DNA of 64,000 nt from an uncultured Planctomycetota bacterium. Lineage in GTDB: Bacteria; Planctomycetota; Planctomycetia; Isosphaerales; Isosphaeraceae. Numbering within the stretch: the stretch's first letter is position 1; every line of letters starts with the position of its first letter. Below the pieces are notes generated by a model. It saw only the letters and a program-made list of their open reading frames with translations. It made no database searches and had not been told where the DNA came from. Where the stretch lies: contig CAWGMQ010000011.1 in the NCBI GenBank assembly GCA_963823665.1, positions 512,001 through 576,000 of the forward strand, read 5' to 3'. Positions 39,301 to 62,776 of the stretch are shown in pieces. The translations under genes and the position numbers were made by a program.

Positions 39301-39451
39301 GGGATTCCAGGATTCCAGACACCCATCCTTTTGTCTCGGTCCCGCGCATCCATTCATTCGCGGCTCGCTCGTTCGGTGCAAAACTACGGCCTCTGGTCAT
39401 TTCGAACTCGCAGAAGGCGAGTGCCCGACGCACGGCAAAACGTGGGTGTCT
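39301..39451 (+). repeat. REP-like element copy 1 (5' exon of intron A)
   Basis: GGATTCCAGACACCCA...TGGGTGTCT terminal inverted repeat around a conserved core. Confidence 0.9.
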
Positions 39452-40183
39452 TTGCGTCAGGAAAGCTCGAGAAAGGAGGAAGTGCCTCGAAACACAGAAA
39501 CCTTTCATCGCGACCCTGCGGGTTAACGAATCCCGCCCGGCAGAGCCTGGCCGGCAGCCGGAAGCAAGTCTTGCGTGGGGAGGGGTGACCCTCACTGCGA
39601 AGCGTAGACAGCGAGTCTCCATGCCATGCTATCGAGCCCCGAAATACTCATCGTGGGAGCCTCCGTTGTAGACACAAGCGGGGGCCGCGTCGACACGCCG
39701 CAATGGCCTGGCGTGTTCGGTCCTGCCGGGGTCCAAGAACATGGCGCAGGGACGCGAGGGTTGCTCGGGAACCTGAGAGCCCCATCCGTCTCCACTGACA
39801 TTTCCGGCTCGGGAACCGGAATACCAACTCCCCGGCCCACGACCCCGCGTCGGGTCGCTGGGAGCGAACAAGACGCAAGGGTGGTATCGCAACATGAAGG
39901 CAACGAAATGTGACGAAAGGGGCGGACGGGAGTCGGAGTGCTCCGTAGTAGCAGTGAAGCGGGGGAATGGGCCCTCCCAGACCCTGTGGAGCGAAGGGGG
40001 TACCGTGTCGCGGACTGGAAGCCGGAACCACGCCGAGGGCATTGGACCTCAGAGCGCGTCACCGCGAGGCGACCAGATCGTGTGAGGGACAGCGACGCCG
40101 CGACATGACGAGCCGGATGCCTTAATTGGGCACGTCCGGATCAGTGGGAGCCCTGGCGGAGCGATCCGCCAGGGCGACCCGGC
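39452..40183 (+). mobile_element. ORF-less group II intron, copy A (732 nt)
   Basis: Starts TTGCG. DV GAGCCGGATGCC-TTAATT-GGGCACGTCCGGATC; DVI with bulged A, ending ACCCGGC. EBS1 AGACAC (39670-39675) is complementary to the exon end GTGTCT. Confidence 0.93.
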
Positions 40184-40621
40184 GACATCCCCTTCCCTGC
40201 TTTTCATTCGTGCGATTCGTCAGATTCGTGGCTTCTCTTCCCCGCTCCGCGCCACGCTTCGCTTCCGCTTTTCGCCTTTGGACACGCACAACCTTGTTCC
40301 GCCCCGTCGTTCGCGATCGGTGCTACGCAAATTCTGCTTCCCCTGTCGGGCGACCATCGGGCGGCAGCCGCGCACGCCATGCTACCCGCCGATCATTCCG
40401 ATTGCTGCCGGCCGAAGCCAGCCCGTCCGTCCATTGCGGACCGACTTCCGCCGAGCGAAAGTGGAGGCGCGCCGAAAACAACCGGCGCGCATCAGCTTTC
40501 GGTTGGTAAAATGGTGGAAATCCCGATGGGCTGCATCGCTTGACCGTGAGTCTCGACCCTCAAAGGAACCGGGTTTGGCGTAGTTACGGATAGCGTCGTC
40601 TATGAAAGGGAGAGCAAAGCC

Positions 40622-40906
40622 GTGACCACCGTGCGTACCGTCATCCACGACCGGCGAATCGAGATTCCCGCACCCGAGAACCTCGCCGATGGTACGGAGG
40701 TAATCCTCACGATCGGCACCGATGTCGCCGATGACGACGGTCCGATGTCGCCCGCGGAAATCGCCCGCGTTCTGGCGGCTATGGGGCGCTTGCAACCACT
40801 CGAAATCCCCGACGATGTCGCGGCGGAACTCGACGCCTGGGAAAACAAGCTGAATCAACACGGCATCGATCGCGCTGAGCGTGAAGGCGAGGACATGTCC
40901 GGATGA
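40622..40906 (+). CDS. putative antitoxin
   Basis: Acidic 94-aa ORF with an ATGA overlap to the PIN toxin; RIEIPAPENLADGTEV N-terminus. Confidence 0.7.
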   Translation: MTTVRTVIHDRRIEIPAPENLADGTEVILTIGTDVADDDGPMSPAEIARVLAAMGRLQPLEIPDDVAAELDAWENKLNQHGIDRAEREGEDMSG

Positions 40907-41301
40907 GACGGTTCATCCTCGATACCGGCATAGCCGCGCTGCATCTCGACCGCAAGCGAGGCGTATTTGAACGGGCAGCCGCCGAGGTCGCCAGAGGCAA
41001 CCGGGTCGGCATCGCGGCGCCGGTGCTCGCCGAACTTGCATTCCGGGCGGAAGGGAGCCCGCAACGCGAACGGAACATCCTGCGGCTTCGCCAGGCACTG
41101 GACGCGTGGAAACTCTGTTTGGTCGACACCGCAGCAGCATTCGAATACGGCCGGCTGGCACTCGAGTTGAAGTCGATCGGTCGCCCCATAGGCCAGAACG
41201 ACATCATGATCGCCGCCATCGCGCTGTCCCTGGGCAACACCACTGTCGTCACTACGGATAGCGACCTCGCCGCCGTCCCCGGATTGACCGTCGAGAACTG
41301 A
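40903..41301 (+). CDS. vapC: VapC-family PIN-domain toxin
   Basis: ILDTG, VLAEL, GRPIGQNDIMIAAIA, VVTTDSDL. Confidence 0.92.
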   Translation: MRRFILDTGIAALHLDRKRGVFERAAAEVARGNRVGIAAPVLAELAFRAEGSPQRERNILRLRQALDAWKLCLVDTAAAFEYGRLALELKSIGRPIGQNDIMIAAIALSLGNTTVVTTDSDLAAVPGLTVEN

Positions 41302-41347
41302 GCGGAGGCCACTTAACCAGCGAATGTCCGGGTCTCCTGGCGTGGCC

Positions 41348-41588
41348 AGGAGCCAGACACCCAATCTCTGAGGAGCCGAGGAGCCAGACACCCAATCTCT
41401 GGTTCCGAGGAGGAGCCAGGGATTCCAGGCACCCATCCTTTGTCTCGCGGCCCCCGCATCCTTTCATTCGCGGCACGCAAGTCGGGTGCAAAACCACGGC
41501 CTCTGGTCAAGTCGAACACGCAGAACGCGAGCGCCTGACGCTCGGCAAACGGTGGGTGTCTGACATCCTCGGCAAACGGTGGGTGTCT
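41348..41588 (+). repeat. REP-like element copy 2, with extra GAGGAGCCAGACACCC units and a duplicated (empty plus filled) target site
   Basis: ...GGTGGGTGTCTGACATC CTCGGCAAACGGTGGGTGTCT then the intron. Confidence 0.9.
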
Positions 41589-42320
41589 TTGCGTCAGGAA
41601 AGCTCGAGAAAGGAGGAAGTGCCTCGAAACACAGAAACCTTTCATCGCGACCCTGCGGGTTAACGAATCCCGCCCGGCAGAGCCTGGCCGGCAGCCGGAA
41701 GCAAGTCTTGCGTGGGGAGGGGTGACCCTCACTGCGAAGCGTAGACAGCGAGTCTCCATGCCATGCTATCGAGCCCCGAAATACTCATCGTGGGAGCCTC
41801 CGTTGTAGACACAAGCGGGGGCCGTGTCGACACGCCGCAATGGCCTGGCGTGTTCGGTCCTGCCGGGGTCCAAGAACATGGCGCAGGGACGCGAGGGTTG
41901 CTCGGGAACCTGAGAGCCCCATCCGTCTCCACTGACATTTCCGGCTCGGGAACCGGAATACCAACTCCCCGGCCCACGACCCCGCGTCGGGTCGCTGGGA
42001 GCGAACAAGACGCAAGGGTGGTATCGCCAAACGAAGGCAACGAAGTGCGGCGAAATGGGCGGACGGGAGTCGGAGTGCTCCGTAGTAGCAGTGAAGCGGG
42101 GGAATGGGCCCTCCCAGACCCTGTGGAGCGAAGGGGGTACCGTGTCGCGGACTGGAAGCCGGAACCACGCCGAGGGCATTGGACCTCAGAGCGCGTCACC
42201 GCGAGGCGACCAGATCGTGTGAGGGACAGCGACGCCGCGACATGACGAGCCGGATGCCTTAATTGGGCACGTCCGGATCAGTGGGAGCCCTGGCGGAGCG
42301 ATCCGCCAGGGCGACCCGGC
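41589..42320 (+). mobile_element. ORF-less group II intron, copy B (732 nt)
   Basis: Same boundaries and domains as copy A; followed by GACATCCCC. Confidence 0.93.
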
Positions 42321-42458
42321 GACATCCCCAAAAATGAATGTCGGCCCGGACCTGGAAATCTCGGATTCGGTGCTCAGTGGCGAGAGGGTCGGTTCGCCCG
42401 ATAAGCTAAACGCACGTCGACCTTCACTGCGAATATGCAAAACCGGAGTGCGTTTGCC

Positions 42459-43724
42459 ATGCAATCGAGCCGTCGCCAGTTCTTGCAGCGCTCGGCCGCT
42501 CTTCCTCCAAGCTGGATGGCGTTCGCAACGGCCCTCGCGGCCGCGCGAACGACGCGAGCCGTCGCCGATGGGGGTTCGGATGAACTGCAGTGGCAACTTG
42601 TCCGACGACAGTTTCCGCTCGAAGACGGCCTGATCTACCTGAACGCCGCCAACGTCTGCCCGGTTTCGCGCCCGGTCCTCGATCGGTACGCTTCATTCTT
42701 GCGCGACTTCCAGGCCAACCCTTCTTTTCAGAATCGCGACAAGTACCACGCGCTTCGGGAATCGGTCCGCTCCAAGCTGGCTGCCCTTCTCGGCGTCTCG
42801 GCCGACGAGGTTGCCATCACTCGCAACACCAGCGAAGGCTCCAATCTCATCGTCCGCGGAATCGACCTCAAGCCCGGAGACGAAATCGTCATCACCGACC
42901 ACAACCATCCCTCGAACAATGAGAGCTGGAAGCTTCGCGCCCGCCGCGACGCCTTGGTGATCAGAAGTGTTCCAGCGCCCGTCCCGGCGCAGTCGCCCGA
43001 GCAACTGGTCGCCGGCATCGAGAAAGCCTTGAGCCCGCGCACGCGCGTGATAGCGCTCACCCATTTGACCAGCACCTGCGGCCTTCGATACCCTATCAAG
43101 CCAATCGCTGAGCTGGCCCGACGGCGCGACATTTTCCTGCATGTCGACGGCGCACAGTCGCTCGGCGCAAGCGACGTGAATCTCAGGAACCTCGGCTGCG
43201 ACTCATTCTCGGCCAGTGCACACAAGTGGCCGATGGGCCCTCTTGAAGCCGGGATTCTCTTCGTGCGCACCGAGCGGATCCCATCAGTCTGGCCGTCGAT
43301 TGTCTCGGCGGGCTGGAGCGACCAGCTCAAAGGCGCCAGGAAGTTCGAGTCGGTCGGCCAGCAGGATGACCCCCGAGTGGTCGCCCTGGAAGCGGCCCTG
43401 GACCTGCTCAACCTGATCGGTATCCGGCAGGTCGAAGCCCGAGTGCAGGCACTGGCTGGTCGCGTCAAACATTCGCTGTCAGAACTGGCGAACGTGGAAC
43501 TGAAAACGAATCTCGAGCCCGAACTCTCAGGCGGGGTAGTCAAGTTCAGACTCAAGAACATGCCCACTGCGCAAGCCTACGACGTGCTCTGGAAACGGCA
43601 TCGCCTGGCGATTGCGATGACCGGCGGAGGCGATTCGGAAGGACTGCGATTCTCGCCCCATATCTATAACACCGTCGACGAGATCGACCGCGCCGTAGCC
43701 GCCGTTCGCGAGCTCTCCGGATGA
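42459..43724 (+). CDS. Tat-exported class V PLP-dependent aminotransferase (isopenicillin N epimerase/SufS-like)
   Basis: SRRQFL Tat motif, YLNAA, TRNTSEG, VDGAQSLG, SAHKW, RFSPHIYNT. Confidence 0.9.
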   Translation: MQSSRRQFLQRSAALPPSWMAFATALAAARTTRAVADGGSDELQWQLVRRQFPLEDGLIYLNAANVCPVSRPVLDRYASFLRDFQANPSFQNRDKYHALRESVRSKLAALLGVSADEVAITRNTSEGSNLIVRGIDLKPGDEIVITDHNHPSNNESWKLRARRDALVIRSVPAPVPAQSPEQLVAGIEKALSPRTRVIALTHLTSTCGLRYPIKPIAELARRRDIFLHVDGAQSLGASDVNLRNLGCDSFSASAHKWPMGPLEAGILFVRTERIPSVWPSIVSAGWSDQLKGARKFESVGQQDDPRVVALEAALDLLNLIGIRQVEARVQALAGRVKHSLSELANVELKTNLEPELSGGVVKFRLKNMPTAQAYDVLWKRHRLAIAMTGGGDSEGLRFSPHIYNTVDEIDRAVAAVRELSG

Positions 43725-44390
43725 GTGCCACTCGCAGACCGAGGGCTTCGATGCCGAGATTGGAAAGCCGAACTTCGTCGTCACGGCGATCATGGCCCAC
43801 GAGCTCTGTCACACACTCCAGGGCCTCAGAAACTACCCGCTTCCAACGGTTCTCAAAGAGCTGCACGCCGACTTCCTGGCTGGCTGGGCGGTCAAGTACC
43901 TTCAAAGGGTCGGCAGCGCCCGATGTCGACGAGACCAAAATCTTCGGGTCGTTCTACAACAAGGGCGACGTTGAGTTCAACAACGAGCAACACCACGGCA
44001 CCAAAAAGGAACGCCTCGATGCCTTCCTCGCAGGCTTTGAGATCGAGGAAGATGACGTCAATGTGGCGTTCGACCGGGGTGACGTGTATGTCAGAAATCT
44101 ACGGATCCGAGACGCGCGGGAGTATTTCGCCAGGAACCTCAGCGTGTACTACGTGGCTGTCGGCAGCCCCGACGGCACATTTGGACTGAAGGTCACCCGC
44201 CCCCCCCGCAGCAGACTCGCCCGTCGGCCGAGGCGGGATCGAGGTTGGCGACGTGATCGTCTCGCTCGACGAACTGCCGATTCGAACTCCCGATGACGTC
44301 GCGAGGCACTTTGGGACCACTACCGTCGTGGTGATCGACGTCAGAACTGGGCAACCCCAGCGAACCGTCATCGAGCTTCCGCAACCCTGA
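43722..44390 (+). pseudogene. 5'-truncated zinc metallopeptidase-PDZ gene with two frameshifts
   Basis: AHELCH...KELHADFLAG in one frame, HHGTKKER in a second, SPVGRGGIEVGDVIVSLD (PDZ) in a third; shifts near 43920 and 44200. Confidence 0.7.
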
Positions 44391-44408
44391 TGGATGGAGA
44401 GAGCGGCC

Positions 44409-44728
44409 GGGGATCCCAGACACCCATCCTTTGTCTCAGGGATCCCAGACACCCATCCTTTGTCTCACGGCCCCCGCATCCATTCATTCGCGGCTCGCAC
44501 GCTCGGCGGAATACCACGGGATCCCAGACACCCATCCTTCGGGATCCCAGACACCCATCCTTTGTCTCACGGCCCCCGAATCCACTCATTAGCGGCTCGC
44601 ACGTTCGGCGCAAAACCACGGCCTCTGGTCATTTCCAACACGCAGAAGGCCAGTGCCCGACGCTCGGCAAACGGTGGGTGTCTGACATCCCTCTGACATC
44701 CCCGACGTTCGGCAAAAGGTGGGTGTCT
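44409..44728 (+). repeat. REP-like element copy 3, with four GGGATCCCAGACACCCATCC starts and a duplicated target site
   Basis: Stuttered left end; empty site GGGTGTCTGACATCCCTCTGACATCCCC precedes the filled site. Confidence 0.9.
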
Positions 44729-45306
44729 TTGCGTCAGGAAAGCTCGAGAAAGGAGGAAGTGCCTCGAAACACAGAAACCTTTCATCGCGACCCTGCGGGT
44801 TAACGAATCCCGCCCGGCAGAGCCTGGCCGGCAGCCGGAAGCAAGTCTTGCGTGGGGAGGGGTGACCCTCACTGCGAAGCGTAGACAGCGAGTCTCCATG
44901 CCATGCTATCGAGCCCCGAAATACTCATCGTGGGAGCCTCCGTTGTAGACACAAGCGGGGGCCGTGTCGACACGCCGCAATGGCCTGGCGTGTTCGGTCC
45001 TGCCGGGGTCCAAGAACATGGCGCAGGGACGCGAGGGTTGCTCGGGAACCTGAGAGCCCCATCCGTCTCCACTGACATTTCCGGCTCGGGAACCGGAATA
45101 CCAACTCCCCGGCCCACGACCCCGCGTCGGGTCGCTGGGAGCGAACAGGACGCAAGGGTGGTATCGCCACACGAAGGCAACGAAGTGCGGCGAAAGGGGC
45201 GGATGGGAGTCGGAGCGTCTCGTAGTACCGTTGAAGCCGGGGAACCACTCCGAGGGACCCGGTGGAGGGAAGGAGACGCCATGTCACACAACCGTTGGAG
45301 GGAAAC

Positions 45307-46658
45307 ATGGCGGGTGCATCGGAACCCGTGGACGTGTCCACGAAACAACAACGGATAGCGGAACTCGCTCGGCGAAGCCCGGAGATGGGATTCACATCCC
45401 TGGGGCACTTCATCGACCTCGATTGGCTGCTCACAGCTTACTACCGGACCCGCCAAGACGGGGCGGTGGGCGTAGACGGACAAGATGGCGAGGCCTACGC
45501 AGCGAACCTGGTCCCGAACCTACGGTCGCTGCTGGAACGAGCCAAGTCCGGTACGTACCACGCACCGCCTGTGCGGCGAGTGCATATCCCCAAGGCAGGC
45601 TCAGCGACCGAAACCCGGCCACTGGGAATCCCGACCTTCGAGGATAAAGTGCTCCAGCGTGCTGTCGTGATGGTTCTGGAGGCGATATACGAGCAGGACT
45701 TCAAGAACTGCTCGCATGGCTTCCGGCCCGAGCGATCGGCACACACTGCGTCAGAGAGCCTGTGGCAACAGACGATGAACATGAAGGGCGGATGGGTAGT
45801 GGATGTGGACATTCGTAAGTTCTTTGACACGATTGACCACGGCCATCTACGCGACTTCCTCAAGCGTCGGGTGCGAGACGGAGTGCTGCTCCGGCTCATC
45901 GGCAAATGGCTCAATGCGGGCGTCTTCGAGAACGGGTGCGTTACGCACCCCGAAATGGGGTCGCCACAAGGGGGTGTGATCAGCCCGATCCTTTCGAATA
46001 TCTTCCTGCACTACGTGCTGGACGAGTGGTTCGAGCGGGAGGTTCAGCCTCGGATGATGGGCAGATCGTTCTTGATCCGCTATGCGGACGACTTCGTCAT
46101 GGTCTTCTCATGCGAGTCCGACGCACGGCGTGTGATGAATGTGTTGCCCAAACGCTTTGAGAAGTACGGCTTGACCATCCACCCGGACAAGACGCGGCTG
46201 GTGCCGTTCGAGCGGCCATCGGACCGTCCCAAACCGGAAGGCAGACCCACACGAACTCCACCAGGGACTTTCGACCTGCTGGCGTTCACCCATTACTGGG
46301 GTCGCTCCCGGCAGGGTCGCTGGGTGGTGAAGCGCAAGACGTCCAAAAGTCGATTTCGCCGCAGCCTGCGAACGTTGGCGGATTGGTGTCGCAAAATCGC
46401 CATCAACCGCTCAAGGTGCAGCACCGGATACTAGGTCAGAAACTGCTAGGCCACTATGCCTACTACGGAATCACCGGCAACTCCAAAATGTTGTCACGGT
46501 TTCGCAGTGGTGCCACCTGGCTCTGGCAGCACTGGCTGTCGCGCCGCGGGCGCGGCCGTCGGATGACATGGGAACGGTTCGCTCGGTTCCTGAAGCATAA
46601 ACCGCTTCCGGCAGCGATTGCGATCCACTCAGTATGCCGTCTCGTAGCGAACAAGTGA
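45307..46658 (+). CDS. ltrA: group II intron reverse transcriptase/maturase without an endonuclease domain; frameshift at the A4 run 46393-46396
   Basis: GVDG, RPLGIPTFEDK, GFRP, DIRKFFD, GSPQGGVISP, YADD. The maturase X motif GHYAYYG is in ORF 46383..46658. GGAGG lies upstream. Confidence 0.92.
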
Positions 46659-46705
46659 CATGACGAGCCGGGTGCCTTAATTGGGCAAGCCCGGATCTGT
46701 GGGAG

Positions 46706-49125
46706 TCGCGAAACGAAGCTGCGGATGAGTCTGTTATGACTGGATTTGCAACCAGGACATAACCCGATGTACGACCACCGGAACCCTACCAGGACGTGCG
46801 GCCGGAGCAATCCGACCGTGCGAAGCTCTTGGGACAACGTAACCTCACCTTCGGGTGGTTGGATATCCCGTGAGGGAATCCGGCGACTGCGAACGCCAAT
46901 GCGGTCGGGGGCCAGGGGTGGATGGCATGGCTAATCCAGGTGAACTGCCGATAAACGTCGTGAGATCCAACAAGCCAAAGGCGCTGAGAGGCTTGAACCA
47001 AAAAGGTACGTGGCCAGGTACAGTGGGATTTCCCATCCCCTGTCGTCGTCATCCGAGCCACCGGCGGAGAGGCAGAGCCTAAACCATCCGTGATTCATCC
47101 GTGGAACGTGGTAAGCCCGTCGCCCTCCCTTCGGGGTAGGACCGTCGTAAGGCGTCGCCGATGGGGCGGCGGGTGGAGGATGAGGGAGCAAGCCAATGCC
47201 GTTCGGTAGTCGATCGGATAGAGGGTGAGTCCTCCCACGGACGACATCCCCTCACCGCGAAAGCGGTGCCGACTTCCCTCAGGTGTTCCGTCACGAGAGA
47301 ACCTTGGCCAACCGACTCAGGGAGACAAGCAGATATGTCGGCGGCAGAAATGCTTGCTGGTGCGGCTCCCGAGCTTACGCCCGACTGGCACTCCATCGAA
47401 TGGAAGAAAGTCTGGCGCACAGTCCGTCGGCTCCAGGCGCGTATCGTGAAGGCTGTTGCGGAGGGCAGATGGAATAAGGTCAAGGCTCTGGTTTATCTGC
47501 TCACGCACTCGTTCAGTGGCCGGGCCCTGGCCATTTTGCGAGTCATCAGTAATTCGGGTGCGAAGACTCCCGGTGTGGACGGAGTTCTCTGGAACACACC
47601 GGAAGCCAAGTCGGCTGCTTTCAGCACTCTGCGTCGGCACGGTTACCAACCGCAACCGCTCCGCCGGGTGTACATTCCCAAAAGCAACGGCAAGCGACGT
47701 CCTCTCGGAATTCCCACCATGTCAGATCGAGCCATGCAGGCATTATACTTGCTAGGCCTCGATCCCATTGCGGAATCTCGAGCCGACGGCCATTCCTATG
47801 GCTTTCGGCTGGAACGTCGTTGTGCCGACGCCCTGGAACAATCTCATATTGTCTTGGGTAATCGGAGCGGTCCAGCATGGATTCTCGAAGGGGACATCAA
47901 AGCTTGCTTTGATCGCATCAGTCATGACTGGCTCTTGACGCACGTCCCCATGGACCGGCAGTTGCTCGGGCAATGGCTGAAAGTGGGTTTCCTGGAGAAG
48001 CACGCCTGGTTCGCCACCACGGAAGGAACACCTCAAGGCGGGATCATTTCACCCGTCCTGGCGAATTGGACTCTGGATGGACTGCAACGGCTGTTGGCGG
48101 AACAGTTCGCCGAGAAGCACGGGCGACAACGGAAGTTTAAAGTCCACCTGGTCCGCTATGCGGATGACTTCTTGATCACGGGCATCTCAAAGGAACTCCT
48201 CCGTGACCAAGTGCAACCTCTCGTGGCTCATTTCTTGAAGGAACGCGGCTTGGAACTTTCCCACGAGAAAACCCAGATCACGCATGTGGAGGATGGCTTC
48301 GATTTCTTGGGGCAGAATGTGCGACGCTATCGCTGCGGCAAGGTGTTCACCAAGCCGTCCTTGCGAAACGTGAAGACGTTCTTGAACAAGATACAGGAAA
48401 CGATCGACGGCTCGGGCAGCCTAACGGCAGGAGAGATGATCTGGCGTTTGAATCAGCAGATCAAGGGCTGGACCATGTACCACCGTTACGCGGCGAGCAA
48501 GCGCACTTTTACGTACGTGGATCACCGGATTTTCCAGAAATTGTGGCGTTGGTGTCGACGACGGCACCAGAACAAAGGCCGGAGGTGGATCAAGGAGAAA
48601 TACTTCCAGCAAGACGGTTACCGCCACTGGGTCTTCACCGGTACGCTGTTTGACCAGAAAGGCCAAGGCCGGCCGATCCAGTTGATGGAAGCAGCCAAAG
48701 TGAAGATCATTCGTTATGTGAAGATCCGGAGCGACGTGAATCCCTACGATCCGAAGTGGGAACTGTACCTGGAAGCACGACTGGGTTGGCAACTGAGCCA
48801 AACGCTGGCAGGTCGGGGTCGGATCGAATACTTATGGAAGGAACAAGAGGGACGATGCGTGGTCTGTGGTCAACCGCTGCGGATCGCAGAGGAAGACTTG
48901 CATCTCCACCATCGCATCTGGCGCAGCCGGGGCGGTTCTGGCACAGCCGACAACCTGGAGTTGTTGCATGCCAACTGTCATCGGCAGATCCATGTCCAAG
49001 AACGACTGACGAAAGCGGCCGCGTCCTGCGAGGGGCGTTCGTGAAGGCTTGAGCTGCATGAAGGGAAACTTTCACGTGCAGTTCTGAGGGGAGGGGGTGG
49101 CGGTAACGTCACCTCCTTACCCGGC
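46706..49125 (+). mobile_element. second group II intron (chloroplast-like class by recall), nested in DVI of the outer intron
   Basis: Starts TCGCG. DV GAGCTGCATGAAGGGAAACTTTCACGTGCAGTTC at 49051-49084; ends TTACCCGGC. Removing it restores the outer GGGAG/CCTTGGGGG DVI. Confidence 0.9.
47335..49044 (+). CDS. ltrA: group II intron RT/maturase with a C-terminal HNH endonuclease
   Basis: WHSIEW...[42 protein letters not shown]...HH...[10 protein letters not shown]. Confidence 0.95.
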
Positions 49126-49318
49126 CCTTGGGGGAGCGATCCCCCAAGGCGACCCGGCGACATCCCTGACATCCCCTAAGCGTGATAAGTAAACGGCAGG
49201 GGAAGAGTCGGACGGTCGCTGGAAGCTAACTCCCACCGACGTAGTGACCCTAACGGCAGGCCCACCAGGTCGCCGTCGGCGGGGTGTAATTACAGCGCGA
49301 GCTCGTTATGATAAATCC

Positions 49319-49585: not shown

Positions 49586-49587
49586 CC

Positions 49588-49713: not shown

Positions 49714-49806
49714 AGAACTCCCAGCGCGCGTCCGGCATCGGTCGGTCACGTATCGTAGTCGCCGCTGTCCCACGGCTCGTAGAACGCCATGTACTTCCCC
49801 TCCTGG

Positions 49807-51733: not shown

Positions 51734-51897
51734 AGGGATTCCAGGGGATTCCAGACACCCATCCTTTTGTCACGGCCCTCCGCATCCACTCATTCGCGGC
51801 TCGCACGTTCGGCGCAAAACCACGGCCTCTGGTCATTTCCAACACGCATAAGGCTAGTACCCGACGCTCGGCAAACGGTGGGTTTCTGACATCCCCC
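51734..51897 (+). repeat. REP-like element copy without an intron
   Basis: Full core ending GGTGGGTTTCTGACATCCCCC (G-to-T change in IBS1). Confidence 0.9.
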
Positions 51898-51898
51898 T

Positions 51899-53646: not shown

Positions 53647-54185
53647 CCCTGATTCTCCGGATCAAACCCACGCTCTATAGACAAGGAACAGTACGGCCCA
53701 GTTTGCGACGGCGCCCGCGAAGAGTACCCGATCTCATCAAAAACGCATATTCGTCTTGTTGACATTGTCAATTTTTAACCGCCCATGCATGGTGCTCGGC
53801 ACTCGAGCTCACCTCACCTAGCTAGATCTTGCTCGCGCGCTAGACCTGACGCCCGCTCACCGAATGAAACTCGTCGCAATCGAATGCGCTTTCTGGACCG
53901 CGATCCCTTGGGTGTAGTACACTTAATTCGCCGCGCTCAACCGTCACGTGACTGCTCTTGCGGTTACCCCGAGATCCAACGTTCTCTGTTCCACGGGATC
54001 GCGACTATGGCAGTGGTCGGACGGCGAACCGTTGCTCGCGTCGTTGAACAGTGTTCTCGTGGCTCTTCGACGCCATGATCTGGATGAGAGACCGGGCGAC
54101 GAGACGTTACCTGCCCGTCAGAGGGCGAGGGATTTGGCCGTTGGTCGTCGCTTGATGAGAATCTTTCCACTCGGGAGGGCCGCTG

Positions 54186-55364
54186 TTGGCCATGGCCAGG
54201 AAGTCGAGCCAAGAGCGAGTGCAGGCGACGCAAGACGGGCGATCCGAGCGAGCCGATTCCTTCGATATTGGCGACACGGTCGAGGTGCAATTTCGAGTCG
54301 TCGAGGGAGGGAACGAGCGGATCGAGATCTTCAATGGCGTCGTCGTCCAGCGGTCGGGGCATGGGTTGCACGAGATGTTCACGGTTCGCCGCATTGTTCA
54401 GGGCGAAGGTGTCGAGCGCCGGTTCAAATTGCATTCGCCATGGATCGCCGACGTCGCTGTGAAAAGGTCGGGCAAGGTGCGGCGCACCAGGCTCTATTAC
54501 CTCCGTGACAGGTCGGGGAAGGCCGTTCGGCTCAAGGAGCGCTTCTCCTACACAACCGGCGCTGACGCCAAAGCCGCCAAAGCCGAGCGCAGAGCCGCCC
54601 GAGCCGCCCGGAAAGCCAGCAAGGTAGAGGCCGAAGTAGCACCGTCAAGTAAAACGAAGCAGCCCAAGGAGGCGTCCCATCGAACGGCCAGTGCGAGCGA
54701 TGCCGGGCCGGCAGAGTCCGAAGGGACGGTCGCGGGATCGTCGATTGACGCCGTATTCGTCCCCGGTAAGTCGCCATACCGGCTAAAGCAGTCTATCGCG
54801 CTCACCGTGGTCGAAACCCGGTCAGGAGTGACCATCCGAAGCGCTGATCTGGGCCTCGAGCGCGACTTAGTCGGTCGTGGACCAGATTGGAACTCCGCGA
54901 TGAATGACTTCGGGCGCAGGTTCGACTTACTGGTCGAGAATAATTGGGCTCTACCGCCTCATAGCATGACACTCAAGAACCGTCGTATTGCCAGCATCCT
55001 CGACAGCGTCGTGGATTGGAAGCGCCACGACGACGAGAATCCTTTGGTGCAGCCCATGTGGGGCCGGCTCCAAGGGCGCCTTGCAGATGGGGCTTTGACC
55101 ATCCATTGGCTAATCGGTCCGAATGGGGATCGCGATGCCGAAGGCGGCCTGCACACGCGAGATGTTCCCGAGGCGCTCGCCGAGCTCGACACGGGCCAGT
55201 GGTTCTACGGCACGGCCAAGTGCTATCCGGATCACATTGAGTGGATCGAGCAGCCCAGCGTTGTTCCGGACCCGAGCGACTCTGAGGGCAGGCGTGCGGT
55301 CTGGGACAGCATGCGGAAGGTCCAGGCCAATCAGCCAGGCTGCTGGCCCGTGAAGCCGCGCTGA
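54186..55364 (+). CDS. ribosomal protein L19 domain fused to an unknown C-terminal region of about 200 aa
   Basis: FDIGDTVEV...EGGNERIEIFNGVV...FTVRRIVQGEGVERRF.LHSP...GKVRRTRLYYLRDRSGKAVRLKE matches bL19; the ORF stays open to 392 aa. Confidence 0.85.
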   Translation: MAMARKSSQERVQATQDGRSERADSFDIGDTVEVQFRVVEGGNERIEIFNGVVVQRSGHGLHEMFTVRRIVQGEGVERRFKLHSPWIADVAVKRSGKVRRTRLYYLRDRSGKAVRLKERFSYTTGADAKAAKAERRAARAARKASKVEAEVAPSSKTKQPKEASHRTASASDAGPAESEGTVAGSSIDAVFVPGKSPYRLKQSIALTVVETRSGVTIRSADLGLERDLVGRGPDWNSAMNDFGRRFDLLVENNWALPPHSMTLKNRRIASILDSVVDWKRHDDENPLVQPMWGRLQGRLADGALTIHWLIGPNGDRDAEGGLHTRDVPEALAELDTGQWFYGTAKCYPDHIEWIEQPSVVPDPSDSEGRRAVWDSMRKVQANQPGCWPVKPR

Positions 55365-55391
55365 TTCGGAGCGGGGAGCGGACGAGTAACC

Positions 55392-56435
55392 ATGGCGATC
55401 AGTTTGTATTGTCTGGATGTCGGCCAGGGCCAATGCATAGTGTTGATGGCCCAATCGGCCGAGGGAAACCAGGCCGCCTTGATCGATGTCGGCGTGGACG
55501 GGAAGCGGTTGGCCCGATGGCTGAAACGCATCAAAGTCCGGCGCATTCCGCTGGTTGTGTTGACGCACAATCATAGCGACCACATCAAGGGACTCGCTGC
55601 TCTGGTCGAGGAATTCGCATCGAAAGTCGGCGATATCCGATTCGTCATCGATCAGCCTCCAGAGCAACTTCCTTTCTGGTCGCCAATCCAGGCATGGCGT
55701 GCCGCCGGTAAGATCGGGTCGGCCAGCGTCGTCTATCCGCCGGACACGTTTGAGGCCGGGACGGGTCACCCCCTTCTCAGCCGCGACCTAGGGGGATTCC
55801 AGCTCTACTGCACCTATCCGACCATCTTCGAGGCCGAGGCAGTTGTCCGCGAAGCCCCGCTGCTGGGTACTCAGCCCGGCGGCAGCGTGAATGCCGTGAG
55901 CACGGTAGTGCGACTGGCCAGAACTGCTGAACCACACCGGACGATTGCCCTTTTTGGCGGCGATCTCACCTTTCGAGGATGGCAGCGCCTTGACGAGAAA
56001 GGTTACGACCTGTCCACCAACCTGCTTGTCGTCCCGCACCATGGCTCGAGTTTCGGTGCCAGCCGGGCGTTTGGGCCCCGACACCTAGCACGCCTCTCTG
56101 AGCCCAAATATGCCCTGTTCTCCGTCGGCACCGAGAATTCGTTTGGGCACCCCCGCAGGGATGTCGTTCGCGCTTTTTGCGAAGTGCGGGCGACGGTGCT
56201 CTGCACTCAAATCACGCATCAGTGCGTGCGCAGGCCCAAGCAACTCCCCGGTCAAACTGTGCGGACAGCCACGCCGGGGGAGCCTGACCTGGTTTCGATC
56301 GGAGTGCGCTGCGCAGGCACAATCATGATCGAAATCCCCGACGTGGGTTCGCCAAGAGTGGTTGGTCTTCGGGAACATCGGAGAGCGGTCGACCGCCTGC
56401 CTCGAACCGCGGACTGCCCGATGTGTCGCCCTTGA
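55392..56435 (+). CDS. ComEC/Rec2-type metallo-beta-lactamase-fold hydrolase
   Basis: LDVGQGQC, LIDVG, THNHSDH, FGGD, VPHHGS, NSFGHP. Confidence 0.88.
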   Translation: MAISLYCLDVGQGQCIVLMAQSAEGNQAALIDVGVDGKRLARWLKRIKVRRIPLVVLTHNHSDHIKGLAALVEEFASKVGDIRFVIDQPPEQLPFWSPIQAWRAAGKIGSASVVYPPDTFEAGTGHPLLSRDLGGFQLYCTYPTIFEAEAVVREAPLLGTQPGGSVNAVSTVVRLARTAEPHRTIALFGGDLTFRGWQRLDEKGYDLSTNLLVVPHHGSSFGASRAFGPRHLARLSEPKYALFSVGTENSFGHPRRDVVRAFCEVRATVLCTQITHQCVRRPKQLPGQTVRTATPGEPDLVSIGVRCAGTIMIEIPDVGSPRVVGLREHRRAVDRLPRTADCPMCRP

Positions 56436-56473
56436 GTTCCCCCAGATTGGTGACTCGCAATCCGCGTCCGTCG

Positions 56474-56737
56474 GGACAACCGTCCGAGGAGGAGGAGCCA
56501 GGGGGAGCCAGACACCCAATCTCTGGACAACCGTCCGAGGAGCCGAGGAGCCAGAGGAGCCAGACACCCAATCTCTGGTTCCGAGGAGAAGCCAGGGAAT
56601 CCAGGCACCCATCCTTTTCTCACGGTCTTCCATATCCATTCATTCGCAGCTCGCACGTTCGGCGCAAAACCACGGCCTCTGGTCACTTCGAACACCCATA
56701 ACGCGAGTGTCCGACGCTCCGCAAGAGGTGGGTGTCT
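56474..56737 (+). repeat. REP-like element copy with a stuttered left end and no complete intron
   Basis: Duplicated GGACAACCGTCCGAGGAG and GAGCCAGACACCCAATCTCTGG units, then the core, ending GGTGGGTGTCT followed by GTGCG. Confidence 0.9.
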
Positions 56738-56833
56738 GTGCGTCGTTGGCTCGGTGTCACCGCGTTTGCGCCTGAATCTCTCGCCTGAATCGGCTCCTGA
56801 GCCCTGTGTCAAACAATTCCGGCCCCGGCAAAC

Positions 56834-58613: not shown

Positions 58614-59112
58614 CGTGCTCTCCTGGGGTGTTGAACTTTTGTGATGAACAACCTCTCTTACGCCCTGCACGAGTGCCTCGAATCCCTCGCGTCCCCATGG
58701 CGCAGGGGTCCACACATCCGGCGCCTGCCGGTCATCCCAGCGAATGGCGCCGGCTGCGAGCGCGGTGCCGCTGTCGATGGATCGGGGCGTTCGCGCAGGG
58801 ATCGGGCTCAAAGGCCCTGACCGGGTGAAAACGCTCGACCAAACCCGAAAACTCAGGGAAGCGCCTGCCGCGTGTCCGGCGCGGCGATGAATAGAGACCT
58901 TCGCGATTTCGAATTAACGGACAGGGTTTCCGGGAAAATTCCAGATTTTCCCCGTCGGTCGTTTCGAGCAGGGTGCCGGGGCCGCACCCGGCGTGCAACT
59001 CCTGGCGCTACCGACGCGGTACCGTGCGATCCCCTTACTCATACTCCTGCTCCTGCTCTCACTTCCGCTTTCTCCATCAATCATCCAACCCGGTTCGCAC
59101 AGACGAAGTGCC

Positions 59113-59326
59113 AGGAGGAGCCAGACGCCCAATCTCTGGTTCCCAGGAGGAGCCGGGGAATCCAGACACCCATCGTTTTATCAGGGAATCCAGACACCCA
59201 TCGTTTTATCACGGTCCCCCCCATCCATTCACTCGCGGCTCGCAAGTTCGGTGCAAAACCACGGCCGCCGGTCATTTCGAACACGCAGAAGGCGAGTGCC
59301 CGACGCTCGGCAAAAGGTGGGTGTCT
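59113..59326 (+). repeat. REP-like element copy (5' exon of intron D)
   Basis: Duplicated GGGAATCCAGACACCCATCGTTTTATCA, then the core and GGTGGGTGTCT. Confidence 0.9.
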
Positions 59327-60059
59327 TTGCGTCAGGAAAAGCTCGAGAAAGGAGGAAGTGCCTCGAAACACAGAAACCTTTCATCGCAACCCTGCGGGTT
59401 AACGAATCCCGCCCGGCAGAGCCTGGCCGGCAGCCGGAAGCAAGTCTTGCGTGGGGAGGGGTGACCCTCACTGCGAAGCGTAGACAGCGAGTCCACATGC
59501 CATGCTATCGAGCCCCGAAATACTCATCGTGGGAGCCTCCGTTGTAGACACAAGCGGGGGCCGCGTCGACACGCCGCAATGGCCTGGCGTGTTCGGTCCT
59601 GCCGGGGTCCAAGAACATGGCGCAGGGACGCGAGGGTTGCTCGGGATCCTGAGAGCCCCATCCGTCTCCACTGACATTTCCGGCTCGGGAACCGGAATAC
59701 CAACTCCCCGGCCCACGACCCCGCGTCGGGTCGCTGGGAGCGAACAAGACGCAAGGGTGGTATCGCAACATGAAGGCAACGAAATGTGACGAAAGGGGCG
59801 GATGGGAGTCGGAGTGCTCCGTAGTAGCAGTGAAGCGGGGGAATGGGCCCTCCCAGACCCTGTGGAGCGAAGGGGGCACCGTGTCGTGGACTGGACGCCG
59901 GAACCACGCCGAGGGCATTGGACCTCAAAGCGTGTGACCGTAAGGCAGCCAGATCGTGAGAGGGACAGCGACGCCGCGACATGACGAGCCGGATGCCTTA
60001 ATTGGGCACGTCCGGATCAGTGGGAGCCCTGGCGGAGCGATCCGCCAGGGCGACCCGGC
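59327..60059 (+). mobile_element. ORF-less group II intron, copy D (733 nt)
   Basis: Same boundaries, DV and DVI as copy A, with several substitutions. Confidence 0.93.
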
Positions 60060-60441
60060 GACATCCCCGCGTGAAATTTATGCCGATAGCGGCATAACTT
60101 TCATAATGCCGCCTTCCGGATTACGCCGACTGGGGTTCGCATGGTGATGCGACCTCCGGCGCATCGCGCGGGTCCTTCACGGCCTTGAGATATGGTGCCA
60201 TCCACGGGATTGTGAATGATGCAAAGAGCGTCGCGGAACGCTATCATTCGGAGGATGGACCGTGCTGGAACTTTGACCATCAATCGGTCACTCAGAGGAC
60301 GCTCGTGCGGCTGTCCAATGTGTAAAGGGTGAATATCCCCCTCGCATCAACGACATCCGAGACGAGGGTTAAGGACTTACGTCACACTTCCAATGTAAGG
60401 CCTGATCCAGAAACGAGAATTCACGGACGGAGCGGCTCGCA

Positions 60442-61041
60442 ATGCGCATGAAGTCTTCTCGCAAACTCACCGTGTTGGACGCCATGATTCTCGTCGGAGC
60501 AACAGCATCCGCGCTTGCGGTGATGCGTAGTCAATGGCCGACCGACTTAGGGATTCAGGACACATACACGGATTCAACCCACGCTTTGAGGTTGTCAAAC
60601 TTATTAATGATCATAAGGCATCACGTGTATTTTGCATCTTACATGATCGCGATGTGGACCTTGTCCTGCTTGATCCTCCGACTACGCCAGCCACGACCTG
60701 CTCTCCGCTTGCTGACCCGCGAGCCCGGGATGGTAGCCTGCATTGCGGCAGTGATCGTCATGGCCATCAGGATGATCAACTTTGGCAGTTTGATGAGTGT
60801 GCTCTCAATTGACGGCGTGAATTCCGTAGCTGGACTAACCGTGCTGGATCTCTTTCCTGATCACTTCATCAATATTCCCTCGGAAATCGGTTGTGCGGTG
60901 ACGGCGGCATGGATTATCCAGGCGATCAGCGGTCGATGGCGCTGCGAACCAAACTGGATCGACCGCGCGGGTCGTAGTATCGGAGCTTTCTGGATCGCAA
61001 CCATTCCGTTCGCCTGGTTTTCAGTTCACTGGTCCGGATGA
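60442..61041 (+). CDS. hypothetical membrane protein
   Basis: KLTVLDAMILV leader, RWRCEPNWIDRAGR near the end. Confidence 0.7.
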   Translation: MRMKSSRKLTVLDAMILVGATASALAVMRSQWPTDLGIQDTYTDSTHALRLSNLLMIIRHHVYFASYMIAMWTLSCLILRLRQPRPALRLLTREPGMVACIAAVIVMAIRMINFGSLMSVLSIDGVNSVAGLTVLDLFPDHFINIPSEIGCAVTAAWIIQAISGRWRCEPNWIDRAGRSIGAFWIATIPFAWFSVHWSG

Positions 61042-61097
61042 AAAAGGCGTGCGATGATGCACCCATTAGCGGCTCGTGAACCCGTTGTCGGCGACTT

Positions 61098-61649
61098 TTA
61101 TGCGTGTTCGGACCGGCCGTCTTCCGCGGCGGTGAGTCGGCCCAAGACCATTCCGATCAAGCCGAACATGATGGCCGCTAAACAATGGCCGATTCGGCGG
61201 AACTGGAAGGCGTCAGGAGGGGACACAAGGGGCCCTGGAACCAGCCCTCCGCCCATCCCCCCGCCCATGCCCTTCATCGTGAACCGCGGAAACAGCTCCT
61301 CTCCTGGTGAACCGGTGTCCATCCGACCGACAGACCAGAGTTTGGAATCCCAGTAGTCGAGCCCCCACCGGGTCACGTAGGGCGGTGCCGTCACCCCATT
61401 GACGGTCGCCCACGGTCCGAACGTCGTCCCGAGGTAGATCCATCCGAAGAGGGCGAAGCCGGCCCAGGTCATCCGGGCTCGCCCCCGGCGTGCCATTGCC
61501 CCAAGGATTGCCGCCGAGAGGACCGCTACGGTGAGCGTGAAGACCGCACTAGCCCAGAGGAGCGAGGCCGACCGTATCGCGGCGAATCCGAGCCCGATGA
61601 AGAACACGGTGGCCATCAACTGGGCGAGGGTGAAGCGGAGGCGCGTCAT
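61098..61649 (-). CDS. hypothetical membrane protein
   Basis: RFTLAQLM leader, WAGFALFGWIYL, FRRIGHCL. Confidence 0.75.
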   Translation of the reverse strand: MTRLRFTLAQLMATVFFIGLGFAAIRSASLLWASAVFTLTVAVLSAAILGAMARRGRARMTWAGFALFGWIYLGTTFGPWATVNGVTAPPYVTRWGLDYWDSKLWSVGRMDTGSPGEELFPRFTMKGMGGGMGGGLVPGPLVSPPDAFQFRRIGHCLAAIMFGLIGMVLGRLTAAEDGRSEHA

Positions 61650-61950
61650 GGGCTCTCTCCCGGAACGAGGGGCGAGGTCAAGGCACCCGGCAATCCCGAA
61701 TCTACGCGACGCCGCAGCTTCTTTCTAGCGAGTGACGTCGGAGGTTGGCGGCCCTTATTCCAGTTTCCTGTTCGTTTGCTATCCTCGGCTACACATTAAG
61801 GGTCAAGTCGCGGGGCGAGACTTACCAGTTCAGGCTGCTATCGACCTCGCGTTGGTGGTGGGGGTGGTGGGACCTGGACCGTTTTTGGTTCGCCGATACA
61901 GCACTTCCCCTGAGAAGGGAGCTCGTAAACCCGGACTGGCGAGGGTCCAA

Positions 61951-62035
61951 GGGGATTCCAGACGCCCACCCTATTGTCATGGTCCCCCGCATCCATTCAT
62001 TCGCGACTCGCGCACTCGGCAAACGGTGGGTGTCT
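61951..62035 (+). repeat. internally deleted REP-like element copy (5' exon of intron E)
   Basis: Both ends retained; about 60 bp of the core is missing. Confidence 0.85.
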
Positions 62036-62767
62036 TTGCGTCAGGAAAGCTCGAGAAAGGAGGAAGTGCCTCGAAACACAGAAACCTTTCATCGCGACCC
62101 TGCGGGTTAACGAATCCCGCCCGGCAGAGCCTGGCCGGCAGCCGGAAGCAAGTCTTGCGTGGGGAGGGGTGACCCTCACTGCGAAGCGTAGACAGCGAGT
62201 CTCCATGCCATGCTATCGAGCCCCGAAATACTCATCGTGGGAGCCTCCGTTGTAGACACAAGCGGGGGCCGTGTCGACACGCCGCAATGGCCTGGCGTGT
62301 TCGGTCCTGCCGGGGTCCAAGAACATGGCGCAGGGACGCGAGGGTTGCTCGGGAACCTGAGAGCCCCATCCGTCTCCACTGACATTTCCGGCTCGGGAAC
62401 CGGAATACCAACTCCCCGGCCCACGACCCCGCGTCGGGTCGCTGGGAGCGAACAAGACGCAAGGGTGGTATCGCCAAACGAAGGCAACGAAGTGCGGCGA
62501 AATGGGCGGACGGGAGTCGGAGTGCTCCGTAGTAGCAGTGAAGCGGGGGAATGGGCCCTCCCAGACCCTGTGGAGCGAAGGGGGTACCGTGTCGCGGACT
62601 GGAAGCCGGAACCACGCCGAGGGCATTGGACCTCAGAGCGCGTCACCGCGAGGCGACCAGATCGTGTGAGGGACAGCGACGCCGCGACATGACGAGCCGG
62701 ATGCCTTAATTGGGCACGTCCGGATCAGTGGGAGCCCTGGCGGAGCGATCCGCCAGGGCGACCCGGC
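62036..62767 (+). mobile_element. ORF-less group II intron, copy E (732 nt)
   Basis: Appears identical to copy B; ends ACCCGGC before GACATCCCC. Confidence 0.93.
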
Positions 62768-62776
62768 GACATCCCC

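What the first reader, a model, noticed from the sequence alone, without database searches (positions are those of the whole stretch)
39301..62776. Family of ORF-less group II introns plus one RT-encoding relative, all inserted at the same nucleotide of a REP-like palindrome
Seen: four 732-733-nt elements (39452, 41589, 59327, 62036) and one RT-bearing element (44729) all begin TTGCG, end ACCCGGC, and sit in TGGGTGTCT^GACATCCC. Empty versions of the site are also in the window. EBS1 AGACAC pairs with the exon end GTGTCT, and a candidate EBS2 (TCATCG) pairs with CGGTGG. Established: ORF-less group II introns can be mobilised in trans by a related intron-encoded protein, and class C introns target terminators and attC sites. 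Inference: this is an autonomous/non-autonomous pair specialised on an intergenic repeat as a multicopy safe site, at five insertions in 23 kb.
Basis: partly seen in the sequence, partly recalled or inferred. Interest (0 to 1): 0.9.

Follow-up and report, generated by a model that had tools for sequence, protein, structure and literature searches.

The report
Introns homing into dispersed inverted repeats
Small self-splicing mobile introns that lack their own enzyme have spread through a soil bacterium's genome by landing at one exact base of a short scattered inverted repeat, and the enzyme-bearing relative that probably moves them is itself invaded by a second, unrelated intron; each piece has a known precedent, but the layered system looks undescribed.

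Summary
Observation confirmed. Four 732/733-nt ORF-less group II introns and one RT-bearing relative sit at TGGGTGTCT^G. Genome-wide there are 14 ORF-less and 6 RT-bearing copies, all 20 at this site, against 194 empty 10-mer sites. (1) The RT element is a twintron: a 2420-nt CL1 intron sits in its domain VI, with seven identical copies here and the same landing site in four other genomes. (2) The target is the end of a ~150-bp inverted-repeat element resembling TIRYT-type terminal repeats, not a GTAG/CGTC REP; both ends are used. (3) A sister ORF-less family reads the opposite strand of the same repeat. (4) The ORF-less family is a mosaic: domain I is 99% identical to the RT intron, domain IV only 63%. 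Insertions follow the G-rich strand in 9 of 10 clusters, as expected for endonuclease-less homing. Intact donor ORFs lie elsewhere in the genome. Splicing and mobility are not shown. Precedents: T. elongatus TeI3/TeI4, RmInt2, B.t.I4. New variant of a known kind.

The parts
39310..39451 (+). ~150-bp inverted-repeat host element (left TIR to IBS1 of right TIR); last 8 nt follow the intron at 40184-40191
   Evidence: blastn of the 158-nt element, 87%
39452..40183 (+). ORF-less group II intron, family A, 732 nt; EBS2 39645-39649, EBS1 39670-39675, EBS3 39734, DV 40110-40142
41419..41588 (+). Host element with an empty right TIR (41553-41568) followed by a 27-nt tandem copy of the TIR that carries the intron
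41589..42320 (+). ORF-less intron, family A, 732 nt; EBS2 41782-41786, EBS1 41807-41812, EBS3 41871, DV 42247-42279, branch A 7 nt from the end; identical to four other copies
44534..44728 (+). Host element with empty right TIR (44675-44691) plus tandem TIR pieces; the last TIR carries the RT intron
   Evidence: folds as a long hairpin, z -2.2
44729..46705 (+). RT-bearing family A intron, 5' part (DI-DV and first 6 nt of DVI); EBS2 44922-44926, EBS1 44947-44952, EBS3 45011, DV 46665-46697
45307..46658 (+). Outer intron-encoded RT/maturase without endonuclease; YADD at 46081; frame shifts in an A-run at 46393-46396 relative to the intact 450-aa copies
46706..49125 (+). Inner group II intron (CL1/IIB1 type), 2420 nt, inserted in the 5' strand of the outer intron's domain VI; EBS2a/EBS2 46962-46968, EBS1 47030-47035
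   Evidence: RF02012 and RF00029
47335..49044 (+). Inner intron-encoded protein, 569 aa, RT + maturase + HNH, intact
   Evidence: best solved relative 6ME0, 605.7 bits
49126..49158 (+). Outer intron, remainder of domain VI and 3' end
   Evidence: matches nt 700-732 of the ORF-less copy
51745..51895 (+). Empty host element; its right TIR has one changed base inside IBS1
56595..56744 (+). Host element whose right TIR is followed by a 7-nt intron-like stub instead of the TIR end
59184..59326 (+). Host element
59327..60059 (+). ORF-less intron, family A, 733 nt, most diverged window copy (96.6%); EBS1 59546-59551, DV 59986-60018
61952..62035 (+). Internally shortened host element
62036..62767 (+). 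ORF-less intron, family A, 732 nt, identical to the 41589 copy; EBS1 62254-62259, DV 62694-62726

Best explanation
These are class E-like (IIB) group II introns that spread by ordinary retrohoming. The intron RNA pairs with an 11-13-nt target through EBS1 (-1 to -6), EBS2 (-8 to -12) and EBS3 (+1), and that target is the conserved end of a dispersed inverted-repeat family (about 200 copies, many as ends of a ~150-bp element). The ORF-less copies splice and home using the RT/maturase of RT-bearing copies in trans, most likely the intact ones on contig C6. The protein has no endonuclease, so insertion is primed at replication forks on the lagging-strand template. Shown: boundaries, copy numbers, target, EBS1/2/3 covariation, lack of HNH, strand bias, mosaic structure, the nested intron and its complementary EBS loops. 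Inferred: splicing, trans-mobilisation, which copy is the donor, fork priming, that a Y1 transposase made the repeat family. On top of this, a CL1 intron whose EBS loops match the conserved DV-DVI sequence of class E-like introns homes into them, so an invaded outer intron can only splice after the inner one has left.
For: 20 of 20 full-length family A copies at TGGGTGTC(T/C)^R on five contigs: 11 in right TIRs or their tandem copies, 2 in left TIRs, 7 in lone TIR units. Five ORF-less copies are 100% identical while their upstream 120 nt are 51-92% and downstream 100 nt 45-54% identical. Over 55 dereplicated introns EBS1 covaries with -1..-6 (MI 1.15-1.51, 85-98% Watson-Crick), EBS2 with -8..-12 (z 9.3), EBS3 with +1 (MI 0.9, 26 of 30 pairs); first and penultimate bases covary (T..G 59, G..A 15, other 2 of 76). 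DV/DVI fold with bulged A, z -5.3. Intact 450-aa IEP passes TIGR04416 (326.7 vs 300); the window copy shows only RVT_1 and no HNH. Intron sense strand equals the G-rich strand of intron-free flanks in 9 of 10 clusters (p 0.011); in C11:512-594 kb 6 of 10 plus-strand sites are filled and 0 of 17 minus-strand sites. Inner intron: 7 copies, 100% identical, all at the same base of an outer intron; relatives at the same base in G097 (4 copies), G064, G087, G117. Trans-mobilisation of ORF-less introns is shown experimentally in T. elongatus (PMC2882425, passages).
Against: No splicing product was seen: the four runs laid are contigs only and no listed joint skips an intron. Only 2 of 6 RT copies have an intact ORF as assembled. 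The ORF-less domain IV, which should bind the IEP, is only 63% identical to that of the presumed donor. EBS2 pairing in family A is weak in the covarying register (mostly 2 Watson-Crick + 2 wobble). The strand test assumes G-rich = leading strand, one cluster disagrees and one has skew near zero; minus-strand sites in the window are mostly left-TIR variants, which confounds the occupancy count. No cognate transposase flanked by this TIR at both ends was found among 11 Y1_Tnp matches.
Confidence: 0.85

Rival explanations
1. The intron rides passively: a composite of the 150-bp element plus intron is copied by a Y1 (TIRYT/RAYT-type) transposase.
For: The repeat looks like a transposase-associated TIR family, TIR units multiply in tandem, and TIRs carrying a 7-nt intron stub occur as repeated copies. 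Two C6 copies have 92% identical upstream elements.
Against: Introns sit in right TIRs, left TIRs and lone TIRs; identical introns lie in host elements only 86-92% alike or in unrelated flanks; EBS1 tracks the target across 55 introns; family B uses the opposite strand with a complementary EBS1.
Confidence: 0.05
2. The ORF-less copies spread by gene conversion or homologous recombination between filled and empty repeats, with no RNA step.
For: Mosaic haplotypes among copies and swapped domain VI in two twintrons show that recombination between copies does occur.
Against: Seven copies share only about 12-15 nt of flank with the others, too little for homologous recombination; strand bias is not expected; ribozyme domains stay intact with compensatory changes.
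Confidence: 0.06
3. The ORF-less copies are mobilised mainly by the inner CL1 intron's protein, or splice without protein and use any RT.
For: The inner IEP is intact in 7 identical copies, more than the outer IEP; class E introns self-splice in vitro (PMC3753933, passages).
Against: The two IEPs are only 34% identical over the RT core; the ORF-less domain IV keeps the layout of the class E-type start region; strand bias fits an endonuclease-less protein, whereas the inner IEP has HNH.
Confidence: 0.03
4. Assembly artefact or segmental duplication.
For: Long-read-style single-base indels are scattered in the RT copies.
Against: Distinct flanks at every copy, graded divergence, the same families in other genomes, and contigs of public runs that hold the ORF-less join and the outer/inner junction.
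Confidence: 0.01

Closest known systems
Thermosynechococcus elongatus TeI3 (ORF-less) and TeI4 (driver) introns (PMC2882425; passages read)
   Same: Many ORF-less copies beside fewer RT-bearing ones, mobilisation in trans, families with diverged EBS sequences, targets in mobile elements and in other introns, identical inner introns in diverged outer ones.
   Different: There all introns are CL1 and the ORF-less ones come from one deletion; here the family is class E-like without endonuclease, the target is a short dispersed inverted repeat, the ORF-less domain IV is an older module shared across genera, and the inner intron belongs to another class.
RmInt2 of Sinorhizobium meliloti GR4 (class D; PMC4615759; passages read)
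   Same: Endonuclease-less intron that homes into terminal inverted repeats, so each element offers two sites on opposite strands; lagging-strand-template bias; relaxed EBS2.
   Different: RmInt2 carries its ORF and targets the repeats of an autonomous IS (ISRm17); here most copies are ORF-less, the target is a non-coding repeat family, and the class D C-terminal motif is absent.
B.t.I4 in RNA domain 6 of B.t.I3, Bacteroides thetaiotaomicron (one table row in the supplement of PMC3552965)
   Same: A bacterial group II intron nested in domain VI of another.
   Different: B.t.I4 is class D and listed as a single case; here a CL1 lineage uses the same base of class E-like introns in five genomes.
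TIRtrons / TIR repeat families of TIRYT transposases (PMC3733652, PMC6006769; passages read)
   Same: Short inverted repeats in dimers and clusters, motif near the GGGGWSAS consensus (6 of 8 positions), partly self-complementary.
   Different: The motif points outward from a ~150-bp non-coding spacer, and no transposase gene flanked by this exact TIR was found.
Insertion sequences that target REP sequences (PMC1525189; search listing only)
   Same: A mobile element uses a dispersed palindromic repeat as landing site.
   Different: DNA transposons, not RNA-guided retroelements.
Class C (IIC) and IIC-attC introns (PMC4424553, PMC7923331; passages)
   Same: Insert next to hairpin-forming intergenic DNA, no endonuclease.
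   Different: These introns have a full 6-bp EBS1 and a covarying EBS2, so targeting is by sequence; they are not class C.

Membership tests
Group II intron | Domain I-IV ribozyme core | tested here: met
   RF02005 138-140 bits, gathering 49, in all five copies
Group II intron | Domain V with AGC triad and 2-nt bulge; domain VI with bulged A | tested here: met
   Fold z -5.3, A 7 nt from the end. RF00029 does not hit the outer DV even at E 0.05; its triad G faces A, as in nearly all relatives
Group II intron | EBS1-IBS1 and EBS3-IBS3 pairing | tested here: met
Group II intron | Self-splicing or IEP-assisted splicing | not testable with these tools
   Only contigs were available; no splice joint listed
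Bacterial class E (IIE) intron | IEP with RT and maturase, no endonuclease | tested here: met
   450 aa, TIGR04416 above cut-off; no HNH in the window copy
Bacterial class E (IIE) intron | 5-nt DV loop; alpha' in the terminal loop of a DId3 stem-loop (features shared by IIE and IIF, PMC3753933) | tested here: met
   DV loop of 5 nt; alpha nt 97 and 99 covary best with nt 254 and 256 in that loop, MI 0.61-0.66, a modest signal
Bacterial class E (IIE) intron | IEP falls in the class E clade rather than F/g1-g6 | not tested
   No curated class E reference was fetched; the label E rather than F rests on recall of class E protein ends
Bacterial class D intron | C-terminal motif LX3AX3PXLF[V/A]HW (PMC4615759) | tested here: not met
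   Absent from the intact IEP
Class C (IIC) intron | Short EBS1 and no EBS2 | tested here: not met
   6-bp EBS1 and covarying EBS2
CL1 / IIB1 intron (inner element) | IEP with RT, X and HNH, close to T. elongatus CL1 protein | tested here: met
   (6ME0 605.7 bits; next chain 136.5)
CL1 / IIB1 intron (inner element) | EBS1, 5-bp EBS2 at -9..-13 and EBS2a at -14 (PMC8643678) | tested here: met
   TTCCCA at 47030, GATCC at 46964, G at 46962 are complementary to the outer DV-DVI sequence; same EBS2 in G097 and G064 relatives
GTAG/CGTC-tagged REP | 20-40-bp hairpin with GTAG or CGTC foot | tested here: not met
   ~150-bp element with ~23-bp imperfect terminal repeats and no such foot at its ends
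TIRYT-associated TIR family | GGGGWSAS-like motif; dimers and clusters | tested here: inconclusive
   6 of 8 positions match; tandem clusters present; the genome's own Y1 genes carry related TIRs
TIRYT-associated TIR family | Cognate Y1 transposase gene flanked by the same TIR | tested here: not met
   0 of 11 Y1_Tnp matches has it on both sides; two truncated genes abut one copy; genome 92% complete

The most novel reading that the evidence does not exclude
A three-tier parasite community built on one short repeat. A long-lived, protein-less domain IV module moves between class E-like intron lineages by recombination, turning whichever ribozyme has the currently useful target loops into a fast non-autonomous copy. 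Two such families have split the same inverted repeat by strand. A CL1 lineage is permanently aimed at the catalytic DV-DVI sequence of these introns and so taxes the enzyme-bearing donors more than the ORF-less copies (4 of 6 against 1 of 14).
Probability: 0.4. Interest if true: 0.75.

Novelty: new variant of a known kind. Interest (0 to 1): 0.55.

Why it matters
Reviews treat bacterial ORF-less group II introns as rare and short-lived (PMC4424553, passages). Here they outnumber the RT-bearing copies 14 to 6, and their domain IV forms a clade across at least four genomes with compensatory pairing, which points to a durable non-autonomous lineage like the SINE/LINE pair of eukaryotes. The case also shows how an RNA-guided element escapes target saturation: aim at a repeat that another system keeps multiplying. 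The outer domain V is missed by Rfam's main group II model, so pipelines keyed on it would miss these elements. A compact 732-nt class E-like ribozyme with natural EBS variants and a cultured relative (Tundrisphaera lichenicola P12) makes trans-mobilisation, the role of EBS2 in class E homing, and ordered twintron splicing directly testable.

Tried and rejected
The whole genome could not be scanned in a script (16.46 Mb); counts come from the genome search, which scored 40 of 82 candidates for the intron query and 40 of 105 for the element query, so fragments may be missed; the junction pattern search is whole. Escape-mutation idea: 0 of 13 ORF-less copies with A at -8 of the inner target are invaded against 7 of 8 introns with T and an otherwise intact target (Fisher p 7e-5), but -8 is a spacer base in IIB1 pairing and a related inner intron in G087 sits at an A site, so I do not claim immunity; timing could explain it. 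Splicing evidence from public runs: four runs laid at 85% likeness, contigs only, mostly relatives' sequence, no splice joints among those listed (15 of 46 shown); the RNA rows do not show transcription. Cognate transposase: not found; the element itself was found in only 4 of 120 other family genomes. Promoter and terminator scans: no excess over shuffles. delta-delta' partner: no clear covariation. Nested inserts in relatives at intron nt 154 and 448 are transposase genes by eye (IS110-like and other, label recalled), not introns. Supplement searches for class E references found nothing. GC skew measured with introns included was discarded as confounded and redone on flanks. No structure or complex prediction was run.


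Full report
1. Observation. The five junctions are at the stated places. The four short elements are 732-733 nt and 96.6-100% identical, and Rfam RF02005 hits all five at 138-140 bits. The window is G000:C11:512001-576000 of a 16.46-Mb, 92% complete genome. Its nearest named relatives by IEP are Planctomycetota, many Isosphaeraceae, so the host is probably of that family (inference).

2. The RT element is two introns. It runs 44729-49158. Positions 44729-46705 and 49126-49158 match the short element's 5' part and its last 33 nt. Between them lies a 2420-nt intron with its own RF02012 and RF00029 hits and an intact 569-aa RT-maturase-HNH ORF whose best solved relative is the T. elongatus CL1 protein. 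It sits 8 nt after the end of domain V, in the 5' strand of domain VI. Its EBS1, EBS2 and EBS2a are complementary to the outer DV-DVI sequence (pairing rules from PMC8643678, passages). Seven 100% identical copies exist, in 4 RT-bearing family A introns, 1 ORF-less A and 2 family B introns. Related introns (81-92% over the 5' part) occupy the same base of different outer introns in G097 (4 copies), G064 and G117; the G087 copy follows the same DV-DVI sequence in a rearranged context. A junction pattern matched 4 of 401 class genomes including G000; G097 was not among them. More distant CL1 relatives found sit at unrelated sites.

3. Genome census. Family A has 14 ORF-less copies (13 whole, 1 twintron) and 6 RT-bearing copies on five contigs. 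Of 28 matches to the 5' junction pattern, 20 are these introns and 8 are short stubs. All 20 follow TGGGTGTC(T/C); +1 is G in 18 and A in 2. The empty 10-mer occurs 194 times (control 8), so about a tenth of sites are filled. Two of six RT copies encode an intact 450-aa protein (C6:911605, C6:1320043); the other four, including the window copy, have single-base indels. The window's indel is in an A-run and is shared with one C3 copy; in four public runs the listed contig over this region has exactly one gap against the window, in one case with no other difference, so an assembly error is likely but unproven.

4. The target. It is the end of a ~150-bp element with ~23-bp imperfect inverted ends (hairpin z -2.2). 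At least 40 such elements were listed, and lone or tandem TIR units are common. Introns use right ends (11), left ends (2) and lone units (7). The motif is near the GGGGWSAS consensus of TIRYT terminal repeats (PMC3733652, PMC6006769; passages) and lacks GTAG/CGTC tags. None of 11 Y1 transposase matches is bounded by it on both sides. The element was found in 4 of 120 other family genomes, strongly only in the same genus.

5. Targeting rules. From 100 intron starts in G000 and relatives, 55 remained at under 93% identity. The relatives are kin, so these z values overstate significance, but the contrast between registers is clear. In class E introns EBS2 is dispensable for splicing and suspected to serve homing (PMC3753933, passages).

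6. A sister family on the other strand. Family B (73% identical, ORF-less, 733-745 nt) has EBS1 TGTCTG and EBS3 G, and inserts at CAGACA^C, the complementary strand of the same TIR, five bases from the family A site. Of three full-length B copies only C11:703038 has both junctions in a TIR; C6:913071 has only its 3' junction there, and C8:520312 has a different EBS1 and matching exon. Five truncated B copies and B-type copies in G001 start or end at this site. No intact B-type RT was found in G000. Across the clade, a strict TIR motif spans the ligated junction in 10 of 33 planctomycete-type introns, 0 of 9 Halomonas-type, against 0.5% background; 13 of the 55 lacked a usable 3' end and were left out. 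T. lichenicola P12 copies are among the positives. So repeat targeting is frequent in this clade, not universal.

7. Mosaic origin. ORF-less A is 99% identical to the RT intron over nt 1-300 but 63% in domain IV, and 72% and 80% to family B in the same parts. In a FastTree analysis of 22 introns, the ORF-less domain IVs of A, B, G001, G002 and G003 form one clade (support 0.965), while their domain Is fall with different RT introns; G014's ORF-less copy looks like a separate recent deletion. This domain IV keeps its fold, 19 of 51 pairs with two-sided changes in 7 sequences. Long-branch attraction is possible, but the identities alone show mosaicism. Full-length ORF-less relatives occur in G001, G002, G003, G014 and G034 (22 of 60 other genomes had some match).

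8. Mechanism. Host read-through transcripts carry the intron (inferred; no promoter signal). It splices with IEP help, reverse-splices into the TIR strand matching its EBS loops, and is copied with a fork-supplied primer (inferred from the missing endonuclease and from RmInt1/RmInt2). Supporting this, intron sense equals the G-rich strand of 60-80 kb of flank in 9 of 10 clusters, and near the window 6 of 10 plus-strand and 0 of 17 minus-strand sites are filled. Identical introns in unlike flanks exclude duplication and passive carriage as the main route. Nothing here shows splicing or mobility directly.

9. What is known. ORF-less introns moved by driver IEPs, EBS divergence and twintrons: T. 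elongatus (PMC2882425, passages). Homing into both inverted repeats of an IS: RmInt2 (PMC4615759, passages). A domain VI twintron: B.t.I4 (PMC3552965, supplement table 1 part 1; also passages and section 11). Nested arrays in Methanosarcina (PMC4424553, passages and section 17). Also read as passages: PMC8919778, PMC12584367, PMC4649490, PMC4028801, PMC7049729, PMC8632793, PMC7923331. Searches for group II intron + ORF-less + REP sequences, + TIRYT and + twintron inserted into domain V gave 0 papers; group II intron + repetitive extragenic palindromic + insertion site gave 5, none on introns in repeats by title; one search listed 20 of 140, none on this. The library lacks most subscription papers; the 2008 survey of ORF-less introns (PMC2525955) was not held, and such papers or the intron database could hold a prior description. 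Earlier AI notes of this scan report repeat-homing ORF-less introns and DV/DVI twintrons in other genomes; they are leads, not support, but they suggest the pattern recurs.

10. Verdict. Real and well supported as ordinary group II retrohoming onto an unusual multicopy target, with an overlooked inner intron, a strand-complementary sister family and a mosaic ORF-less lineage. New variant of a known kind; interest 0.55.

Noticed in passing
window 21412-21798 (-): Group I intron (RF00028, 72.5 bits) inserted right after the CAT anticodon of a tRNA gene.
   Followed up: partly
window 56738; L031:8177 and 9459; L032:12256 and 14633; L033:12732; L041:14460; L056:6253; L240:7532: Nine TIRs are followed by a stub of the intron start (7 nt in eight cases, about 20 nt in one) and then other sequence; four share the same downstream repeat, and one form recurs in G008, so scarred TIRs seem to keep multiplying. 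Cause unknown.
   Followed up: partly
L028, L048, L049, L051, L052, L053, L243 (G000); L234, L248 x2 (G001): Ten 5' intron fragments break at the same base, after GCCGGAAG(C/T)GAG near nt 115, with unrelated sequence beyond. A recurrent precise breakpoint that nothing here explains.
   Followed up: partly
L041:6547-8036; L032:7928-8659 and 7893; L034:5027-10235: Head-to-tail intron arrays separated by 24-35-nt TIR units, including ORF-less + RT + inner intron chains.
   Followed up: partly
L037 (C8:678 kb) and L038 (C8:520 kb): Two twintrons whose outer 5' part is ORF-less A or B carry the RT-type domain VI after the inner intron, suggesting exchange of 3' flanks.
   Followed up: partly
L316, L317 (C8:613 kb, C8:128 kb) and C6:816 kb: A third RT intron family (38-39% to the outer IEP, 3 copies) starting just after terminator-like T/C-rich ends, probably class C (label from recall).
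   Followed up: no
L031:7321-7369; L320 (G087): 3' intron fragments that begin inside domain V next to an inverted copy of the same sequence.
   Followed up: no
window 40622-41301 (+): Small gene pair ending in a PIN-domain protein, probably a toxin-antitoxin pair, lying between two intron-filled elements.
   Followed up: no
window 54186-55364 (+): ORF with a ribosomal L19 domain (aa 19-119) and a 270-aa extension; followed by a metallo-beta-lactamase-fold gene at 55392-56435.
   Followed up: no
L142, L143, L145, L147: Relatives of the outer intron whose EBS1 is retargeted to an A-run ending AAAAAAG, likely an IS frameshift site (recall).
   Followed up: no
L069 (C8:1768 kb): Truncated Y1 transposase gene fused directly to the left 100 bp of the 150-bp element.
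   Followed up: partly
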